A stretch of 64,000 nucleotides of DNA from Cyclobacteriaceae bacterium. Its GTDB lineage: Bacteria > Bacteroidota > Bacteroidia > Cytophagales > Cyclobacteriaceae. A model generated the notes under the pieces. It searched no databases and was not told the DNA's origin. It saw nothing but the letters and a program-made list of their open reading frames with translations. Numbering within the stretch: position 1 is the stretch's first letter; every line of letters begins with the position of its first letter. The stretch lies in the NCBI GenBank assembly GCA_965227155.1, contig OZ245731.1, forward strand, positions 2,166,624 through 2,230,623, in the 5' to 3' direction. Position numbers and translations under genes: made by a program. Shown one piece after another: positions 7,118 through 10,359 of this stretch.

Positions 7118-7194
7118 AAAGTCTTTTAGATTTTCCTTGCTCACACGGGTAACTTTTTCATCTCGAGCCTGCTGCCTGCTTTCTTGAATCTTTC

Positions 7195-7234
7195 CACCTC
7201 CTCAGAGTCTCTCTTTGAGGACTCTGAGGTTGAG
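7195..7234. repeat. left copy of an imperfect inverted repeat bracketing the AT-rich islet (partner at 10392-10430)
   Basis: The reverse complement CTCAACCTCAGAGTCCTCAAAGAGAGACTCTGAGGAGGTG aligns to plus-strand 10392-10430 with 31 of 40 positions identical (one gap), including a perfect 11-nt core CTGAGGAGGTG. It also contains a perfect 10-bp hairpin, CCTCAGAGTC-N10-GACTCTGAGG (7199-7228). Confidence 0.6.
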
Positions 7235-7300
7235 CTTATTGCCCCTATCCTTCCAAAACTGAAGATGAACTCTTGCTTCCGAGGATAGTTTTATTTGCAT
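7202..7300 (-). pseudogene. truncated YoeB/Txe-like type II toxin remnant
   Basis: ATG 7300 overlaps the antitoxin stop (ATGCAAATAA). It encodes MQIKLSSEARVHLQFWKDRGNKLNLRVLKERL and then TGA at codon 33. The N-terminus fits the Bacteroidota Txe/YoeB pattern (..A..L.FW.KSGNK....K). Only about 30 further codons remain before lspA, versus roughly 85-90 aa for intact toxins. Confidence 0.6.
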
Positions 7301-7503
7301 AGAGCCTTGCATTCATCAACGGTCATGGCTATACCTTTTCCTTCTTCGAATTCTTTTTCACTTTTTTGAATCTTTGCCACAAACTCAGGGCCGTAAGGCT
7401 CTTCATTAGTTACCTCAAATTTCATTTTAAGGGCTTCGGCAAATGCCTTCACCACGTTTTCTTGCTCCTTATTTTCGGTATGAATGATTATTGTACTGTT
7501 CAT
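7291..7503 (-). CDS. DUF2683-type antitoxin-like small protein
   Basis: MNSTIIIHTENKEQENVVKAFAEALKMKFEV...YGPEFVAKIQKSEKEFEEGKG matches my recollection of the DUF2683 pattern (HPENKEQ..ALKAF.KALKI.FE...Y.PEFV.KI). The ATG at 7503 is preferred over the track's TTG at 7518. Confidence 0.75.
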   Translation of the reverse strand: MNSTIIIHTENKEQENVVKAFAEALKMKFEVTNEEPYGPEFVAKIQKSEKEFEEGKGIAMTVDECKALCK

Positions 7504-7723
7504 ACAACCAAATTGCAATAAATGAAATATATATCATTATGCATGAAATATTTGAAGTGATAAATATTGGATTTATCTTGAAAATGCAAGTGCGCAGTAT
7601 TCTACCAAATCATGGGTATACCGGGCGCTGAAATCAAAATATATTGGAAATACCGCACATAGTGTGCGATATGTTATAGTTGTGCTTTATACCTGCTAAA
7701 AGCTAAGAATATCTGAACCAGCA

Positions 7724-7745
7724 AGTTCAAGTTGTTTGTTGAACT
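7724..7745. promoter_or_regulatory. inverted repeat AGTTCAA-N8-TTGAACT, candidate operator upstream of the HTH-ImmA gene
   Basis: 7-bp perfect arms about 36-57 nt upstream of ATG 7781, in the divergent antitoxin/ImmA intergenic region. A second palindrome, CGCACA-TAG-TGTGCG, lies near 7654-7668. Confidence 0.3.
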
Positions 7746-7768
7746 CTTTTAACGTATAATTAAGTACA

Positions 7769-7776
7769 TACATTTG
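7769..7776 (+). promoter_or_regulatory. -7 promoter box TAcaTTTG, 4 nt from the start codon (leaderless geometry)
   Basis: TAnnTTTG match followed by CAAC and then ATG 7781. Confidence 0.45.
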
Positions 7777-7780
7777 CAAC

Positions 7781-8908
7781 ATGAGAACTGAGGTAGATAT
7801 CAATGCGAACATGCTGACTTGGGCAATTGACAGAGCAGGATATGATTTGCCTGAATTTGCCGAAAAAATGCCTCGAATTACGGCTTGGATAAATGGTGAA
7901 AAGAAGCCTACAGTTAAACAACTAGAGAGTTTTTCCAAAAAAGTTCACCTACCATTTGGATATCTGTTCTTACCCGAACCCCCCAACGAACCATTGCCAA
8001 TACCATTCTTTAGAACGAACGGCAACCAAGCCGAAAAAGTAAGTGTGAACGTTTATGATACAATTTTGATTCTTCAACAGCGTCAAAGTTGGCTCAAGGA
8101 ATATTTAGAGGATAATGATTTTGAACCACTGCAATTTGTAGGACAGTTTAAAAATAGCCACGATGTTAGTGCCATTGTAAATAGTATTCGGGGCACTCTT
8201 GGACTCGCTGAAGATTGGGCAAGGCATTTCCGTACTTGGCAAGATGCTTTAAATCATCTTGTTGAAACTATTGAAGACAAAGGAATTATAACAGTTTTTA
8301 ACGGAGTTGTGGAAAATAATACTTCCCGCACAATTGAAGTAGATGAATGTAGGGGTTTCGTTCTTGTTGATGATTTAGCACCTTTCATGTTTATAAATAA
8401 CACGGATGGTAAGGCGGCCCAGCTTTTCACTATTGTACATGAACTAGCTCATATCTGGACAGGACATAGTGCTGGTTTCGACTTTCGAACACTTCAACCA
8501 GCGGATGATCCGATAGAAGTTCTTTGCGATAAAGTAGCTGCAGAATTTTTAGTACCAGAACACACCTTTAGTCAAGAATGGAGTAACAACCCAAGCATTC
8601 AAAGATGCTCTCGATTTTTCAAAGTGAGTGAAATTGTAATTGCCCGAAGAGCTTTGGATACAGGAAAAATTTATCGAAATGAATTCTTTGCTTTTTACGA
8701 GGAATATAAGAATCGAGAATTTATAGAGAAGCAAAGTCAAGGGTCTGGAGGAGATTTTTATGCAACTGCTAGAAAAAGGCTGAGCCTGACATTTGCTTCT
8801 CATATTAACAATGCTGTTAAAACCGGCCAACTTCTCTACCGTGATGCTTACAAATTAACAAGCATGAAAGGAGACACTTTTGATAAATTCTTTGCCAAAA
8901 CCATATAA
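7781..8908 (+). CDS. XRE-like HTH fused to an ImmA/IrrE-family (COG2856) zinc metallopeptidase
   Basis: N-terminal HTH-like segment (KPTVKQLESFSKKVHLPFGYLFLPEPP). HEXXH motif HELAH at residues 220-224 (nt 8438-8452), followed by CDKVAAEFLVPE. The length of about 375 aa is typical of this fusion. Confidence 0.85.
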   Translation: MRTEVDINANMLTWAIDRAGYDLPEFAEKMPRITAWINGEKKPTVKQLESFSKKVHLPFGYLFLPEPPNEPLPIPFFRTNGNQAEKVSVNVYDTILILQQRQSWLKEYLEDNDFEPLQFVGQFKNSHDVSAIVNSIRGTLGLAEDWARHFRTWQDALNHLVETIEDKGIITVFNGVVENNTSRTIEVDECRGFVLVDDLAPFMFINNTDGKAAQLFTIVHELAHIWTGHSAGFDFRTLQPADDPIEVLCDKVAAEFLVPEHTFSQEWSNNPSIQRCSRFFKVSEIVIARRALDTGKIYRNEFFAFYEEYKNREFIEKQSQGSGGDFYATARKRLSLTFASHINNAVKTGQLLYRDAYKLTSMKGDTFDKFFAKTI

Positions 8909-8913
8909 TCCTA

Positions 8914-9414
8914 ATGAAGGTATATGTGGTTGACAGCAATTTCTTTATTCAGGCTCATAGAGCCACATATCCTTTGGATGTAGCAACAAGTTTTTGGACA
9001 AAAGTTCGTGAATTAGCAGAAGCTGGAACGATTATAAGTATAGATAAAGTCAAAAAGGAACTGTTTGATAAGAATGATGACCTTGAAGATTGGTGTGTTA
9101 ATAACCTACCCACAGAATTTTTTAAGGACTCTTCATCCGCTTTAAGAGAGTACGGACAAATATCTACATGGGCAATTTCCAGAAATGATCACTATTTACC
9201 TCAAGCAATCAACGAATTTCTGGATGCAGATGAAGCTGATGCATTTTTAGTATCCTACGCAATGGCAGATATTCAGAACAGGGTTCTAATTACACATGAA
9301 GTTAGTCAACCTGAAGGAAAGAAGAAAATTAAGATACCAGAACCTTGTGATGTGTTTGGTGTGAAATACATGAACACAATCCAAATGTTTAGAGAATTAG
9401 GGATTACTTTCTAA
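8914..9414 (+). CDS. DUF4411-family protein, predicted PIN-like nuclease
   Basis: 166 aa, 5 nt downstream of the ImmA gene. The N-terminal VYVVDSNFFIQA and the later acidic cluster LDADEADAFLVSYA fit a PIN-like active-site layout. The family assignment is from memory. Confidence 0.8.
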   Translation: MKVYVVDSNFFIQAHRATYPLDVATSFWTKVRELAEAGTIISIDKVKKELFDKNDDLEDWCVNNLPTEFFKDSSSALREYGQISTWAISRNDHYLPQAINEFLDADEADAFLVSYAMADIQNRVLITHEVSQPEGKKKIKIPEPCDVFGVKYMNTIQMFRELGITF

Positions 9415-9437
9415 AATGTACAGAAGCACAACAGTCA

Positions 9438-9529
9438 CTAAAATGAATATGCGAACTTAGCACTTTCATAGAGCAATGCGAAAAGGAAACCTTAATGCGT
9501 CTAGCAACTGGGGCGCATACTCATTTTAG
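9438..9529. repeat. 16-bp inverted repeat enclosing 60 nt (MITE-like element or structured RNA)
   Basis: CTAAAATGAATATGCG (9438-9453) pairs with CGCATACTCATTTTAG (9514-9529), 15 of 16 complementary. The motif CTAAAATG also occurs at 9411-9418, overlapping the DUF4411 stop codon. Confidence 0.6.
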
Positions 9530-9567
9530 TTGGATGTTGTACTTCATTATGCCCAAAAAATTATCAA

Positions 9568-10359
9568 GTGATAAACTTCTTTAGAAAAATTAGACAGAAA
9601 ATGCTGTCTGAAAATACTTTCAGCAAATACCTAATTTATGCTATTGGGGAAATTGTTCTTGTGGTTATCGGAATATTGATTGCACTTTCAATTAACAATT
9701 GGAATGAGAATAGTAAAGAACGAGTCATTGAGAAAAGCTATTTAAAACGTCTTTCATTAGACCTTAAGGAAAACAAAACACTTTGGGAAAAAACACTAGA
9801 TCGTAAGGAAAATCAGCTAACAGCTGCTTATGTCTTTTTAAATTTTCATTTTAGTGAAAATCAAGATACGATCCTTAATATCTTACCTCATTTCCAAAAA
9901 TTAGCCACCTGGCAAGACATTAATATCAATCAGGTCACTTTTAATGAAATGGTGAGTAGTGGTAACTTAAATATTATTAAAAATGATTCTATCAAAATTA
10001 AATTGTTGAATCTGGATAAGCTTTATAAGGCTATTTTGAATAATCAAGATTTGATTAAAACCGAGTATAAAGTTCTATTACATGAGCCAACAATGAATAT
10101 CATAAATACAAGTAATGCTTATGTTTTAGATCCAGAACAAAGAAGACATATTCAGCGTGAATTTTCTGAAGACGATATAAATGTTTATACAAATCAATTT
10201 CTAAAAGACCTGACAACCTTAATCAATGATAAAGTTTTTATAAATGGAGTTACAGGTATTATTTATAATGCTGAATATCGATTTAAGGAATTTAACCAGG
10301 CTATAGATGAGGTGACTGAATTGATAGCATTGATTGATGAAGAAATTGATAAGAATTGA
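9568..10359 (+). CDS. single-pass membrane protein of unknown function (DUF6090-like)
   Basis: GTG start. The N-terminus MINFFRKIRQKMLSENTFSKYLIYAIGEIVLVVIGILIALSINNWNE matches a recurrent Bacteroidota hypothetical-protein family. The rest is predicted helical and very AT-rich. Confidence 0.75.
   Translation: MINFFRKIRQKMLSENTFSKYLIYAIGEIVLVVIGILIALSINNWNENSKERVIEKSYLKRLSLDLKENKTLWEKTLDRKENQLTAAYVFLNFHFSENQDTILNILPHFQKLATWQDININQVTFNEMVSSGNLNIIKNDSIKIKLLNLDKLYKAILNNQDLIKTEYKVLLHEPTMNIINTSNAYVLDPEQRRHIQREFSEDDINVYTNQFLKDLTTLINDKVFINGVTGIIYNAEYRFKEFNQAIDEVTELIALIDEEIDKN

What the first reader, a model, noticed from the sequence alone, without database searches (positions are those of the whole stretch)
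7781..9414. HTH-ImmA/IrrE metalloprotease + DUF4411 (PIN-like) pair: best candidate for an uncharacterised toxin-antitoxin / anti-phage module
Two co-directional genes lie 5 nt apart inside an AT-rich islet. Gene 1 fuses an XRE-like HTH N-terminus (KPTVKQLESFSKKVHLPFGYLFLPEPP) to a COG2856/ImmA-IrrE zinc-peptidase core. That core carries HELAH at residues 220-224 (nt 8438-8452), followed by CDKVAAEFLVPE. Gene 2 (166 aa) begins VYVVDSNFFIQA and has a later acidic cluster, LDADEADAFLVSYA. This is the layout of a PIN-like nuclease and, from memory, of DUF4411, which typically sits downstream of such HTH-peptidase genes. ImmA (ICEBs1) and IrrE (Deinococcus) are signal-activated proteases that cleave a repressor. 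To my knowledge, the trigger, the protease substrate and the nuclease target of the ImmA-DUF4411 pairing have not been determined. A protease-gated nuclease would be a plausible abortive-infection or addiction device.
Basis: partly seen in the sequence, partly recalled or inferred. Interest (0 to 1): 0.7.

Follow-up and report, generated by a model that had tools for sequence, protein, structure and literature searches.

The report
Protease-gated PIN toxin–antitoxin gene cassette
The two genes are a real toxin–antitoxin pair (a large zinc-protease antitoxin guarding a PIN-type RNA-cutting toxin), but a related pair in Mycobacterium tuberculosis was solved and tested in 2026, so this is a new member of a known kind, here carried on what looks like an integron-style gene cassette.

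Summary
Gene 1 (7781-8908, 375 aa) has an HTH-like N-domain, an M78/ImmA-IrrE zinc peptidase and a helical C-domain. Gene 2 (8914-9414, 166 aa) starts 5 nt downstream and is a full-length DUF4411 protein (E 1.5e-47). Its model has a VapC-like PIN fold and four invariant acidic residues. All 80 related genomic loci keep gene 1 directly upstream of gene 2.

The claim that the pairing is uncharacterised is outdated. It was described in 2017 and belongs to the RmrA/RosmerTA-type antitoxin network. Both proteins also match PDB 9VZY, the M. tuberculosis VapBC52 complex (NAR 2026). There, ssDNA triggers the antitoxin to cut itself at an "FR" linker motif, which frees a tRNA-cleaving toxin.

The window protein keeps HExxH, the third zinc ligand, the FR motif and the C-domain. 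It lacks VapB52's regulatory "cysteine switch" (Phe233 instead). So the trigger cannot simply be transferred.

A side finding: the pair travels as a 1,857-bp unit ending in a ~117-nt attC-like hairpin. The unit's 5' boundary is the exact reverse complement of the hairpin's inner box, as the integron cassette model predicts. No integrase lies nearby.

Verdict: new member of a known kind, modest interest.

The parts
7679..7685 (+). GTTGTGC, the 5' boundary of the mobile unit. Under the integron model the crossover lies between G7679 and T7680.
   Evidence: DNA homology to the closest relatives L001 and L002 (87-90% identity) begins exactly here, and no flanking genes are shared. The heptamer is the perfect reverse complement of the R'' box GCACAAC at 9426-9432.
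7724..7745 (+). Perfect inverted repeat AGTTCAA-N8-TTGAACT upstream of gene 1. It is a candidate operator but is not conserved.
   Evidence: Found. A TTCAA-N-TTGAA arrangement occurs in only 3 of 76 loci, and no motif is conserved upstream of the -7 box. Its function is unsupported.
7769..7776 (+). TACATTTG, a Bacteroidetes-type -7 promoter box (TAnnTTTG) ending 4 nt before the ATG. This implies a leaderless or near-leaderless mRNA.
   Evidence: TAnnTTTG lies at exactly -12..-5 from the gene 1 start codon in 55 of 76 loci. Calling it a promoter rests on the established Bacteroidetes consensus, so this is an inference.
7781..8908 (+). Gene 1: a 375-aa antitoxin of VapB52/RmrA type, with an N-terminal HTH-like domain, a disordered linker, an M78 zinc-peptidase middle domain and a helical C-domain.
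   Evidence: Pfam PF06114 E 5.6e-15. PADLOC RmrA models down to E 1.7e-14 over aa 33-313. phmmer against 9vzy_A (VapB52) E 2.2e-9, and the family profile aligns through aa 345. The AlphaFold2 model matches IrrE, PprI and PrpR plus ImmR and C.Csp231I.
7781..7969 (+). N-terminal five-helix XRE/HTH-like domain (aa 1-63), the presumed toxin-binding domain.
   Evidence: Helices at aa 9-18, 23-29, 32-38, 45-54 and 59-63. Foldseek matches 7t8i ImmR (TM 0.70), 4jqd and 4jcy C.Csp231I, and 4o8b BswR. The paper names the same structural neighbours for the VapB52 N-domain, which is the domain needed for toxin binding.
7997..8017 (+). P-I-P-F-F-R-T (aa 73-79): the 'FR motif' in the disordered linker, the presumed self-cleavage site.
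   Evidence: pLDDT is 32-34 across aa 71-93, yet P73, I74, P75 and R78 are invariant in the clade. Among 136 diverse family sequences, R78 is kept in 133 and F/Y77 in 116. The motif aligns with DFRR of VapB52, the proposed cleavage site.
8438..8452 (+). HELAH (aa 220-224), the zinc-binding and catalytic HExxH motif.
   Evidence: Invariant in the clade and kept in 135 of 136 representatives. It aligns with HEFVH of VapB52.
8474..8488 (+). G-F-D-F-R loop (aa 232-236), the position of the VapB52 'cysteine switch'. Here it is Phe233 followed by Asp234.
   Evidence: In the profile alignment, VapB52's switch Cys aligns with invariant F233 and the adjacent Asp is conserved. Across 136 family sequences this column is Ser 58, Phe 37, Thr 10, and Cys is not among the five commonest residues. 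The loop has low pLDDT (aa 233-241).
8516..8518 (+). Glu246, the third zinc ligand, within the E-x-x-C-(D/N)-x-x-A-A-E-F-L-x-P motif.
   Evidence: Invariant in the clade and kept in 134 of 136 representatives. It aligns with the Glu of LEARCN in VapB52, where E245 is a zinc ligand.
8747..8905 (+). C-terminal helical domain (aa 323-375, starting at GGDFY), presumed to occlude the toxin's active site.
   Evidence: G323, G324 and F326 are invariant. GG(D/N)(F/Y)Y is family-wide. It aligns with GGNWY at the start of the VapB52 C-domain, which blocks the VapC52 active site. Helices at aa 326-374.
8914..9414 (+). Gene 2: a 166-aa DUF4411 PIN-like nuclease toxin, homologous to VapC52. Predicted catalytic residues are D7 (8932-8934), E49 (9058-9060), D109 (9238-9240) and E129 (9298-9300).
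   Evidence: Pfam PF14367 E 1.5e-47, full length. phmmer against 9vzy_D E 1.1e-9 and the family profile E 6.8e-11. AlphaFold2 pLDDT 92. Foldseek top hits are VapC toxins 3zvk, 6a7v and 5ecd (prob 1.00, TM 0.53-0.68). The four acidic residues are invariant in 57 of 57 sequences and align with acidic residues of VapC52, including D6.
9426..9542 (+). attC-like imperfect hairpin. Layout: R'' GCACAAC (9426-9432), spacer AGTC, L'' ACTAAAATGAATATGCG (9437-9453), 60-nt centre, L' CGCATACTCATTTTAGT (9514-9530), spacer TGGAT, R' GTTGTAC (9536-9542).
   Evidence: Inverted repeat found. The fold has energy -38.8 kcal/mol and z -4.7. There is no credible Rfam family. An nhmmer profile built from 67 unique metagenome copies hits 9427-9546 at E 6e-31. 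Orientation bias and box complementarity were tested.

Best explanation
The two genes form a type II toxin-antitoxin module of the VapBC52 / RosmerTA-like kind.

Gene 2 is a PIN-fold (DUF4411) ribonuclease toxin. Gene 1 is a large three-domain antitoxin.

In the resting state, the HTH-like N-domain of gene 1 would clamp a toxin dimer and the helical C-domain would cover the PIN active site. This is inferred by homology with the 1:2 VapB52:VapC52 crystal complex.

On a stress signal, the antitoxin's own M78 zinc peptidase would cut its disordered linker at the conserved P-I-P-F-F-R-T motif. The signal is ssDNA in the homologue, arising from phage replication or DNA damage. It is unknown here, because the regulatory cysteine is replaced by Phe233. 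Cleavage would detach the N-domain and free the toxin.

The free toxin would then cleave RNA (tRNA anticodon or variable loops in the homologue). Translation would stop, giving growth arrest or abortive infection.

The module carries its own promoter, placed so that the mRNA is leaderless, and it moves between genomes as a compact two-gene unit. In this window, and in two related genomes, the unit ends in an attC-like recombination hairpin. It therefore most likely arrived as an isolated integron-type cassette, and the module would also act as an addiction element for that cassette.

Shown here: the domain identities, the PIN fold, the conserved catalytic and motif residues, the homology to both chains of 9VZY, strict co-conservation, mobility, and the anatomy of the hairpin. 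Inferred: toxicity, neutralisation, self-cleavage, the trigger, the RNA targets and any anti-phage effect.

Confidence breakdown: about 0.85 that it is a TA module of this type, about 0.55 for self-cleavage at the FR site as the release step, and about 0.65 for the integron-type cassette reading. The overall figure given is 0.6.
For: - Domains.
- Homology of both proteins to the two chains of one solved complex, 9VZY. Its mechanism comes from PMC13273310.
- PIN fold. Invariant D7, E49, D109, E129.
- Antitoxin architecture: N-domain fold, a disordered linker that nevertheless holds an invariant FR motif, HExxH plus E246, and the conserved GGDFY C-domain.
- Co-conservation: 80 of 80 loci keep the order gene 1 then gene 2, with gaps of 3-21 nt. 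Divergence of the two genes is correlated (Pearson 0.87).
- Mobility: no flanking gene is shared with any locus, and homology ends at 7679 and about 9538.
- Plasmids: the same architecture sits among other TA modules on proteobacterial plasmids.
- Prior literature on the pairing: PMC5499597, PMC10440598, RosmerTA preprint 10.1101/2022.05.11.491447.
- Cassette evidence.
Against: - Similarity to VapBC52 is remote (E about 1e-9 to 1e-11), so functional transfer is uncertain.
- The cysteine switch that gates VapB52 is absent here and in most of the wider family. ssDNA activation by that route cannot be assumed.
- In the VapBC52 study, phage protection was seen only when the toxin was over-expressed alone. 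The intact pair did not protect. A defence role is therefore unproven even for the homologue.
- PADLOC has no model matching gene 2.
- Neighbours of the module across genomes are mostly housekeeping genes. Only a minority are restriction-modification or other defence genes, and enrichment was not tested against a baseline.
- No relatives were found on viral contigs.
- The complex could not be modelled, so the 1:2 clamp-and-occlude geometry is untested here.
- Only 3 of 81 copies of the pair carry the attC-like element, and no integrase lies in the window.
Confidence: 0.6

Rival explanations
1. It is a pure addiction or stabilisation module. The pair acts as a selfish post-segregational killing element that keeps the cassette, or the plasmids that carry its relatives, from being lost. 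It would have no anti-phage role. Toxin release would follow loss of the genes, or ordinary turnover of the antitoxin, rather than a sensed signal.
For: Relatives sit on plasmids, 22 of 39 of them conjugative, and two inspected examples lie among other TA modules. The window copy lies in an attC-bounded unit, and TA cassettes are known stabilisers of integron arrays (title and abstract of PMC13108822, listed). Neighbours are mostly housekeeping genes. The intact VapBC52 pair did not protect against phage.
Against: This does not explain why a catalytically intact zinc peptidase, an invariant linker motif and a conserved gating loop are maintained across thousands of family members. Those features point to regulated activation. 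The two roles are also not mutually exclusive.
Confidence: 0.25
2. It is a classical type II TA in which host proteases (Lon or Clp) degrade the antitoxin. The M78 domain would be a degenerate scaffold, or would act on another substrate such as a phage protein or a host repressor, and not on the antitoxin itself.
For: ImmA, IrrE and CapP all cut a separate HTH protein. The cysteine-switch residue of the one self-cleaving example is missing here.
Against: The active-site residues HExxH and E246 are invariant, so the domain is not degenerate. The FR motif, proposed as the self-cleavage site in VapB52, is the most conserved feature of an otherwise disordered linker. No separate XRE repressor gene accompanies the pair in the window.
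Confidence: 0.12
3. It is an ImmA/ImmR-like regulatory switch of a mobile element. Gene 1 would be an anti-repressor protease controlling excision or transfer, and gene 2 would be an accessory nuclease rather than a toxin.
For: The M78 family is named after ImmA of ICEBs1. The unit is mobile.
Against: No integrase, excisionase or conjugation genes recur next to the pair in 146 immediate neighbours or occur among the window ORFs scanned. The shared unit in many locus pairs is just the two genes with their -7 box. Gene 2 is homologous to a demonstrated growth-inhibiting toxin.
Confidence: 0.03
4. About the 3' element only: the ~117-nt hairpin is not an attC site. It could be a transcription terminator or 3'-UTR RNA element, or a MITE/REP-like repeat, that happens to lie after gene 2.
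For: Most copies are single within their contig stretch. Only 1 of 91 integrase-sized neighbours is a tyrosine recombinase. R' departs from the strict GTTRRRY consensus. The long stem shows almost no covariation. No attC covariance model was available.
Against: - There are 76 further copies next to unrelated genes.
- Orientation is strongly biased: a co-oriented ORF stop lies within 60 nt upstream in 61 of 72 contexts. That is unlike a MITE.
- The AAC and GTT outer boxes are conserved, with non-complementary spacers.
- Homology breakpoints fall at the GTT.
- The 5' boundary is a 7/7 complement of R'' in the window. In L111, R' of the first site is a 7/7 complement of R'' of the second.
- A divergent copy keeps the stem, and the same mismatch position, through compensatory changes.
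- L108 and L129 show shuffling of the units either side of the element.
Confidence: 0.3

Closest known systems
VapBC52 (Rv2515c/Rv2514c) of Mycobacterium tuberculosis, PDB 9VZY/9VZZ (Singh et al., NAR 2026, PMC13273310)
   Same: - The two-gene layout is the same: a large HTH-M78 antitoxin upstream of a DUF4411 PIN toxin.
- Both window proteins match the corresponding chains.
- The three-domain antitoxin plan is shared, as are HExxH plus Glu, the FR linker motif and the GG-aromatic start of the C-domain.
- The toxin's four acidic residues are shared.
   Different: - Sequence similarity is only remote (E about 1e-9 to 1e-11).
- The switch cysteine (C229) is Phe233 here.
- The antitoxin is 375 aa here against 415 aa there, with no disordered 23-residue N-terminal extension.
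- The host is Bacteroidota rather than Actinobacteria.
- Here the module is a mobile unit with a leaderless promoter and, in this window, an attC-like end.
- Trigger, targets and phenotype are untested here.
RosmerTA (RmrA/RmrT) anti-phage systems (Millman et al. 2022; Ernits et al. 2023, PMC10440598)
   Same: The antitoxin is a Zn-peptidase (ImmA-like) protein with an N-terminal HTH. Gene 1 hits ten or more PADLOC RmrA models (best E 1.7e-14). Ernits et al. note PIN-like toxins among the partners of this antitoxin hub.
   Different: Gene 2 matches no PADLOC RmrT model or any other PADLOC model. The validated RmrT toxins are of other kinds; the phage Kita one depolarises the membrane. Anti-phage activity of a DUF4411-type pair under native expression has not been shown.
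Predicted three-component HTH / DUF955 (COG2856) / PIN-like TA systems; DUF4411.1 subfamily (Matelska et al. 2017, PMC5499597)
   Same: This is exactly the configuration described there: a DUF4411.1 gene downstream of a fused DUF955-HTH gene in non-actinobacterial phyla.
   Different: That work was predictive only. Here the fold, motif conservation, co-conservation statistics and mobility were tested directly.
ImmA/ImmR (ICEBs1), IrrE(PprI)/DdrO (Deinococcus) and CapP/CapH (CBASS regulators)
   Same: They share the M78 zinc-peptidase fold. The gene 1 model matches IrrE 3dti and PprI 8sln/8slm, and PADLOC capP scores E 1.5e-11. They also share signal-activated proteolysis of an HTH-containing polypeptide.
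   Different: Those proteases cut a separate repressor to switch on transcription. Here the HTH-like domain is fused to the protease, the partner is a nuclease toxin, and the homologue cuts itself.
Integron gene cassettes: isolated cassettes (SALIN) and small attC clusters (CALIN) (Loot et al., bioRxiv 10.1101/2022.09.11.507474; Cury et al. 2016, PMC4889954)
   Same: The unit carries its ORFs followed closely by an imperfect palindrome with AAC...GTT outer boxes and unpaired spacers. Its 5' end is complementary to its own R'' box. It sits alone among housekeeping genes with no integrase, as described for SALINs. TA and defence cassettes are known integron cargo.
   Different: - The site was not called by IntegronFinder, which was unavailable.
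- R' fits GTTRRRY only in part.
- No cognate integrase was identified.
- This attC-like family is seen here mainly as single copies.

Membership tests
DUF4411 / PIN-like nuclease (Pfam PF14367, VapC group) | Significant full-length match to the family profile | tested here: met
   E 1.5e-47, 161.8 bits against a cut-off of 23.5; profile positions 1-159 of 159.
DUF4411 / PIN-like nuclease (Pfam PF14367, VapC group) | PIN alpha/beta/alpha fold | tested here: met
   AlphaFold2 pLDDT 92.1. The Foldseek PDB top 25 is dominated by VapC and FitB toxins and PIN-type RNase P (HARP), prob 0.94-1.00, TM up to 0.68.
DUF4411 / PIN-like nuclease (Pfam PF14367, VapC group) | Four conserved acidic active-site residues | tested here: met
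   D7, E49, D109 and E129 are invariant in 57 of 57 sequences. They align with acidic residues of VapC52.
DUF4411 / PIN-like nuclease (Pfam PF14367, VapC group) | Metal-dependent RNase activity and toxicity | not testable with these tools
   Needs expression and cleavage assays.
VapBC52-type TA (HTH-M78 antitoxin + DUF4411 toxin) | Both partners homologous to VapB52 and VapC52, in the same gene order | tested here: met
   9vzy_A E 2.2e-9 (single sequence) and 5.3e-9 (profile). 9vzy_D E 1.1e-9 (single sequence) and 6.8e-11 (profile). The antitoxin gene lies upstream in 80 of 80 loci.
VapBC52-type TA (HTH-M78 antitoxin + DUF4411 toxin) | Three-domain antitoxin: HTH-like N-domain, peptidase middle domain, helical C-domain | tested here: met
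   AlphaFold2 secondary structure and Foldseek domain matches. The profile alignment runs through the GGDFY/GGNWY start of the C-domain.
VapBC52-type TA (HTH-M78 antitoxin + DUF4411 toxin) | HExxH plus downstream Glu as zinc site | tested here: met
   H220, E221, H224 and E246 are invariant and kept in 134-135 of 136 family representatives.
VapBC52-type TA (HTH-M78 antitoxin + DUF4411 toxin) | Conserved 'FR' motif in the N-domain/middle-domain linker (self-cleavage site) | tested here: met
   F77-R78 lie in a linker with low pLDDT and align with DFRR of VapB52. R is kept in 133 of 136 sequences.
VapBC52-type TA (HTH-M78 antitoxin + DUF4411 toxin) | Cysteine-switch loop supplying a fourth zinc ligand (C229) | tested here: not met
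   The aligned residue is invariant Phe233. The column is Ser, Phe or Thr in 105 of 136 family sequences. This is a regulatory feature of the one characterised member. Whether it defines the family is unclear.
VapBC52-type TA (HTH-M78 antitoxin + DUF4411 toxin) | 1:2 antitoxin:toxin complex, ssDNA-induced self-cleavage, tRNA cleavage | not testable with these tools
   No multimer prediction was available, and biochemistry is needed.
RosmerTA (RmrA/RmrT) | Antitoxin matches RmrA models (HTH + Zn-peptidase) | tested here: met
   Eleven PADLOC RmrA models hit at E 1.7e-14 to 1.1e-4. PADLOC gives no curated cut-offs.
RosmerTA (RmrA/RmrT) | Toxin matches a known RmrT model | tested here: not met
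   Gene 2 has no PADLOC hit at E <= 0.01.
RosmerTA (RmrA/RmrT) | Demonstrated anti-phage protection | not testable with these tools
   Needs phage challenge.
ImmA/ImmR or IrrE/DdrO protease-repressor pair | A separate XRE-family repressor gene as adjacent substrate | tested here: not met
   The HTH-like domain is fused to the protease. The partner gene is a PIN nuclease, and no small XRE gene flanks the pair in the window.
spr1629 family repressor/antitoxin (NCBIfam NF052239) | Score above the curated cut-off | tested here: not met
   27.5 bits against a cut-off of 335. It is a distant relative only.
Integron gene cassette / attC site | Imperfect palindrome with R''(..AAC) and R'(GTT..) boxes, unpaired spacers and inner L''/L' stem | tested here: met
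   GCACAAC-AGTC-[17-nt arm]...[17-nt arm]-TGGAT-GTTGTAC. Fold z -4.7. The family consensus keeps TAAC...GTTA.
Integron gene cassette / attC site | Site lies just 3' of a co-oriented ORF, with the next ORF close downstream | tested here: met
   61 of 72 contexts have a co-oriented stop within 60 nt upstream, and 46 of 72 a co-oriented start within 120 nt downstream. On the other strand the counts are 14 and 18.
Integron gene cassette / attC site | Cassette 5' end (from the preceding R') complementary to its own R'' | tested here: met
   Window 7/7 (GTTGTGC against GCACAAC). L111 7/7 (GTTACCC against GGGTAAC; self-pairing 4/7). L138 5/7 (self 4/7). The sample is small and the test was partly post hoc.
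Integron gene cassette / attC site | Integron integrase and attI nearby (complete integron) | tested here: not met
   None of 20 window ORFs scanned is a recombinase. Only 1 of 91 neighbours elsewhere is one. This is compatible only with the SALIN/CALIN category.
Integron gene cassette / attC site | Recognised by the IntegronFinder attC covariance model; recombined by IntI | not testable with these tools
   The model is not available here and Rfam has no attC family. Recombination needs an experiment.

The most novel reading that the evidence does not exclude
Two linked possibilities remain open.

(1) The Cys switch reported for VapB52 is a lineage-specific add-on. The bulk of this very large antitoxin family (6,338 cluster representatives) has Ser, Phe or Thr followed by Asp/Asn at that loop. 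These proteins could be gated by a different signal, still unidentified, that drives cleavage at the universal FR site.

(2) The same TA module exists both free-standing (77 of 80 genomic loci) and as an attC-ended unit (the window, L001, L002), at about 87-90% DNA identity to an attC-less copy (L003). This could be a rare before-and-after snapshot of how a gene pair with its own promoter becomes an integron cassette. It would involve a previously undescribed attC family, seen here in Bacteroidota genomes and in many metagenome contigs of unknown taxonomy, that spreads mainly as isolated cassettes.
Probability: 0.2. Interest if true: 0.65.

Novelty: new member of a known kind. Interest (0 to 1): 0.35.

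Why it matters
As a TA or defence module it mostly confirms existing knowledge. It extends the newly characterised VapBC52 design to Bacteroidota. It shows that the FR self-cleavage motif, the zinc site and the C-domain are family-wide, while the cysteine switch is not. That tells experimenters which parts of the M. tuberculosis mechanism are likely to be general and which are not.

The cassette observation matters more for mobile-DNA biology. It points to an attC-like recombination-site family that moves single genes and small operons around chromosomes without a nearby integrase. It was seen here in three Bacteroidota genomes and in 76 metagenome stretches of unknown taxonomy. It also offers matched attC-plus and attC-minus copies of one module for studying how cassettes originate.

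Tried and rejected
- Exact-sequence look-up of gene 2 in public assemblies found nothing on record. The source organism is therefore only inferred, as a Cytophagales-like Bacteroidota, from the best hits.
- Conserved operator for the HTH domain. The window has a perfect AGTTCAA-N8-TTGAACT repeat, but it is not conserved (3 of 76 loci). No motif upstream of the -7 box carries information. Autoregulation via a shared operator is thus unsupported, and the N-domain may serve mainly in toxin binding.
- Defence-island context. Immediate neighbours in 73+73 flanks fall into 164 Pfam families. Only a few are HsdS, ResIII, methylase, RT or AAA_15 genes. No baseline was available, so no enrichment claim is made.
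- Phage carriage. There are no relatives in IMG/VR viral contigs.
- The 3' hairpin as a universal part of the module. Rejected: homology boundaries vary between locus pairs, and many pairs share only -12 to the stop codon. Another subclade has an unrelated hairpin.
- The hairpin as a MITE/REP repeat within this genome. It is single-copy in the window and strongly oriented with respect to genes.
- Rfam. Only sub-threshold MIR828 hairpin look-alikes were found.
- RNAalifold on the element alignment returned no structure. I used the fold of the consensus sequence instead.
- A YoeB-like toxin remnant downstream of the DUF2683 gene. Pfam does not support it. The stretch instead contains a weak DUF2683 C-terminal fragment (E 2.3e-4, below cut-off).
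- Sequence-profile support for HTH_3 in the N-domain. It is only E 0.23, so the HTH assignment rests on structure.

Full report
**Observation**

The two ORFs exist exactly as described: 7781..8908 (375 aa) and 8914..9414 (166 aa), on the same strand and 5 nt apart. All quoted peptide motifs are at the stated residues, and HELAH maps to nt 8438-8452.

Pfam assigns Peptidase_M78 (E 5.6e-15) to gene 1 and a full-length DUF4411 (E 1.5e-47) to gene 2.

The pair is AT-richer than its surroundings: GC 0.375 against 0.426, which puts it in the lowest 3.7% of equal-sized windows. The deepest dip (GC 0.288) belongs to the next gene, a DUF6090 protein.

The N-terminal 'XRE HTH' is not recognisable by sequence profile (HTH_3 E 0.23). 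The AlphaFold2 model does show a five-helix N-domain that matches ImmR, C.Csp231I and BswR DNA-binding domains.

**What gene 2 is**

- The model is confident (pLDDT 92.1).
- Its best PDB matches are VapC toxins (R. felis VapC2, Mtb VapC11, Shigella VapC), followed by FitB and PIN-type RNase P, with probability about 1.0 and TM up to 0.68.
- D7, E49, D109 and E129 are invariant in 57 homologues.

**What gene 1 is**

- PADLOC matches it to many RmrA models, the RosmerTA antitoxin (best E 1.7e-14 over aa 33-313), and to CapP.
- The middle domain of the model matches IrrE, PprI and Mtb PrpR.
- An exhaustive search finds 6,338 cluster representatives at E <= 1e-3. Of these, 1,139 reach E <= 1e-30, and most of the best 150 align over nearly the full length.

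**The pairing is already known and a homologue is characterised**

Matelska et al. 2017 described DUF4411.1 genes downstream of fused HTH-DUF955 genes as predicted TA systems. Millman et al. defined RosmerTA as a Zn-peptidase antitoxin plus a toxin of unknown function, citing that configuration. Ernits et al. 2023 noted PIN-like partners of the ImmA/RmrA hub.

Most importantly, both window proteins hit the two chains of a single PDB entry, 9VZY. Gene 2 matches the 'DUF4411 family protein' chain (E 1.1e-9; family profile 6.8e-11). Gene 1 matches the 393-residue HTH chain (E 2.2e-9). 9VZY is the VapBC52 (Rv2515c/Rv2514c) complex of M. tuberculosis.

That paper reports the following:

- The complex is 1:2 antitoxin to toxin.
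- The antitoxin N-domain is needed for binding, and its C-domain occludes the PIN active site.
- The zinc site is H216/H220/E245, plus a 'cysteine switch' C229.
- ssDNA triggers HExxH-dependent self-cleavage that releases the N-domain, at a proposed 'FR' linker motif.
- The toxin cleaves host and phage tRNAs.

One caveat applies: phage D29 protection was seen only with the toxin over-expressed alone, not with the intact pair.

**Feature-by-feature transfer to the window**

Conserved features:

- HExxH and E246.
- The FR motif. P-I-P-F-F-R-T sits in a linker with pLDDT about 33, yet it is invariant in the clade. R78 is kept in 133 of 136 diverse family sequences, and the motif aligns with DFRR of VapB52.
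- The GGDFY start of the C-domain.
- The toxin's acidic residues.

Not conserved: the switch cysteine. It aligns with invariant Phe233, and the column is Ser/Phe/Thr in most of the family.

The clamp-and-release mechanism is therefore probably general. The gating, and hence the trigger, may not be.

**Co-conservation and mobility**

- A scan of one genome per species returned 256 relatives of gene 2.
- All 80 loci kept (59-93% identity) have gene 1 directly upstream, with gaps of 3-21 nt.
- This sample is biased towards close relatives. The literature reports monocistronic DUF4411 genes in Actinobacteria.
- Divergence of the two genes is correlated (Pearson 0.87).
- None of the window's flanking genes (ileS, lspA, DUF2683, DUF6090, dciA, recF, pdhA) occurs beside any other copy.
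- DNA homology to the closest copies ends at 7679 and about 9530-9538.
- Neighbours elsewhere are heterogeneous and mostly housekeeping.
- Distant homologues keep the same two-gene architecture on proteobacterial plasmids, among other TA modules.
- None was found on viral contigs.

**Expression signals**

A Bacteroidetes-type -7 box (TAnnTTTG) lies at exactly -12..-5 from the gene 1 ATG in 55 of 76 loci. In the window it is TACATTTG at 7769-7776. This implies a leaderless mRNA. No operator-like motif is conserved upstream.

**The 3' element**

Immediately after gene 2 lies a ~117-nt imperfect hairpin (9426-9542; z -4.7). It has no Rfam family. Among the 80 genomic loci it is shared only with L001 and L002.

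Its left arm occurs as an exact 20-mer in 76 metagenome stretches, none of which carries the TA pair. The copies define a conserved unit..YAAC-AAAC-[long imperfect stem]-TTGGxC-GTTR...

The evidence for an attC-type recombination site is as follows:

- In 61 of 72 distinct contexts, a co-oriented ORF ends within 60 nt upstream, mostly within 0-20 nt. In 46 of 72, a co-oriented ORF starts within 120 nt downstream.
- The outer box pairs covary.
- The window's left homology boundary, GTTGTGC (7679-7685), is the exact reverse complement of the element's R'' box GCACAAC.
- In L111, which has two copies, R' of the first site (GTTACCC) is the exact complement of R'' of the second (GGGTAAC), 7/7 against 4/7 for self-pairing. 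L138 gives 5/7 against 4/7.
- L111's first site is a divergent variant that keeps the stem, and the same A.C mismatch position, through compensatory changes.
- L108 and L129 show shuffling of the units on either side of the element.

These are the expectations of the integron cassette model. No integrase is present among 20 window ORFs scanned and recombinases are rare near other copies. The unit 7680-9536 is therefore best described as an isolated, SALIN-like cassette (literature). I could not run an attC covariance model or any recombination test. I put this reading at roughly 0.65-0.7.

**Verdict**

The finding is real and correctly typed, but it is a new member of a known kind. What is new is modest:

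- The VapBC52 design extends to Bacteroidota.
- The FR site appears general, while the Cys switch is absent.
- The mRNA is probably leaderless.
- This copy is packaged in an attC-like unit belonging to a widespread, apparently undescribed site family.

Noticed in passing
window 9426-9542; L001:6521-6621; L002:6523-6633; L081-L156: A conserved ~110-120-nt attC-like hairpin family. It has 76 further copies in metagenomes, none next to the TA pair. It nearly always lies just 3' of a co-oriented ORF. A few loci carry 2-3 copies 0.9-3 kb apart. It is not in Rfam.
   Followed up: partly
window 9536-10359 and L108, L134, L102: The very AT-rich DUF6090 gene (GC 0.288) begins right after the attC-like site. 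Its leader (TTGTACTTCATTATGCCC) resembles the 5' end of the TA unit. L108 has the same element followed by the DUF6090 start, but a different gene upstream. DUF6090 may therefore be a second cassette. No matching attC was detected after its stop, although GAAAGCACAAT at about 10364 resembles the R'' region.
   Followed up: partly
window 7769-7776 and 76 related loci: The TAnnTTTG -7 promoter box sits at a fixed -12..-5 from the antitoxin start codon in 55 of 76 loci. This implies a leaderless antitoxin-toxin mRNA. In many locus pairs, DNA homology starts exactly at this box.
   Followed up: partly
window 7118-7518, minus strand: An intact DUF2683 gene (7291-7518, E 5.7e-23) is followed by short broken reading frames. 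One is a weak DUF2683 C-terminal-like fragment (E 2.3e-4, below cut-off). Together with the TA unit and DUF6090, the lspA-dciA/recF interval looks like a small insertion hotspot containing gene remnants.
   Followed up: partly
L003:4700-4805 and L003:6534-6639: In Shiella aurantiaca, the closely related TA pair lacks the attC-like element. It is instead flanked by 106-nt direct repeats (87% identical) that have no copy in any other locus examined.
   Followed up: no
L034, L075, L065, L012, L008, L011, L057 (first ~80 nt after the gene 2 stop): Another subclade of the module carries a different conserved hairpin directly after the stop codon, for example GCAGTCACACACATACCGCATT...AATGCGGTAAGAGTGTGCCTGC, with a conserved CGCACAAxCCAACGC loop. 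Its nature is unknown.
   Followed up: no
gene 1 aa 249 (window 8525-8527) and family alignment: Cys249, three residues after the zinc ligand E246, is kept in 133 of 136 diverse family sequences and also in VapB52 (LEARCN). It is not the reported switch cysteine, and its role is unexplained.
   Followed up: no
L026 (PXAV01000014.1) and L024 (CAZIXJ010000030.1): Near-identical copies of the module sit in bins labelled Methanosarcinaceae archaeon and Hyphomicrobiales. L026 is 99.96% identical to L025 from a Bacteroidales bin, which makes mis-binning more likely than cross-domain transfer.
   Followed up: no
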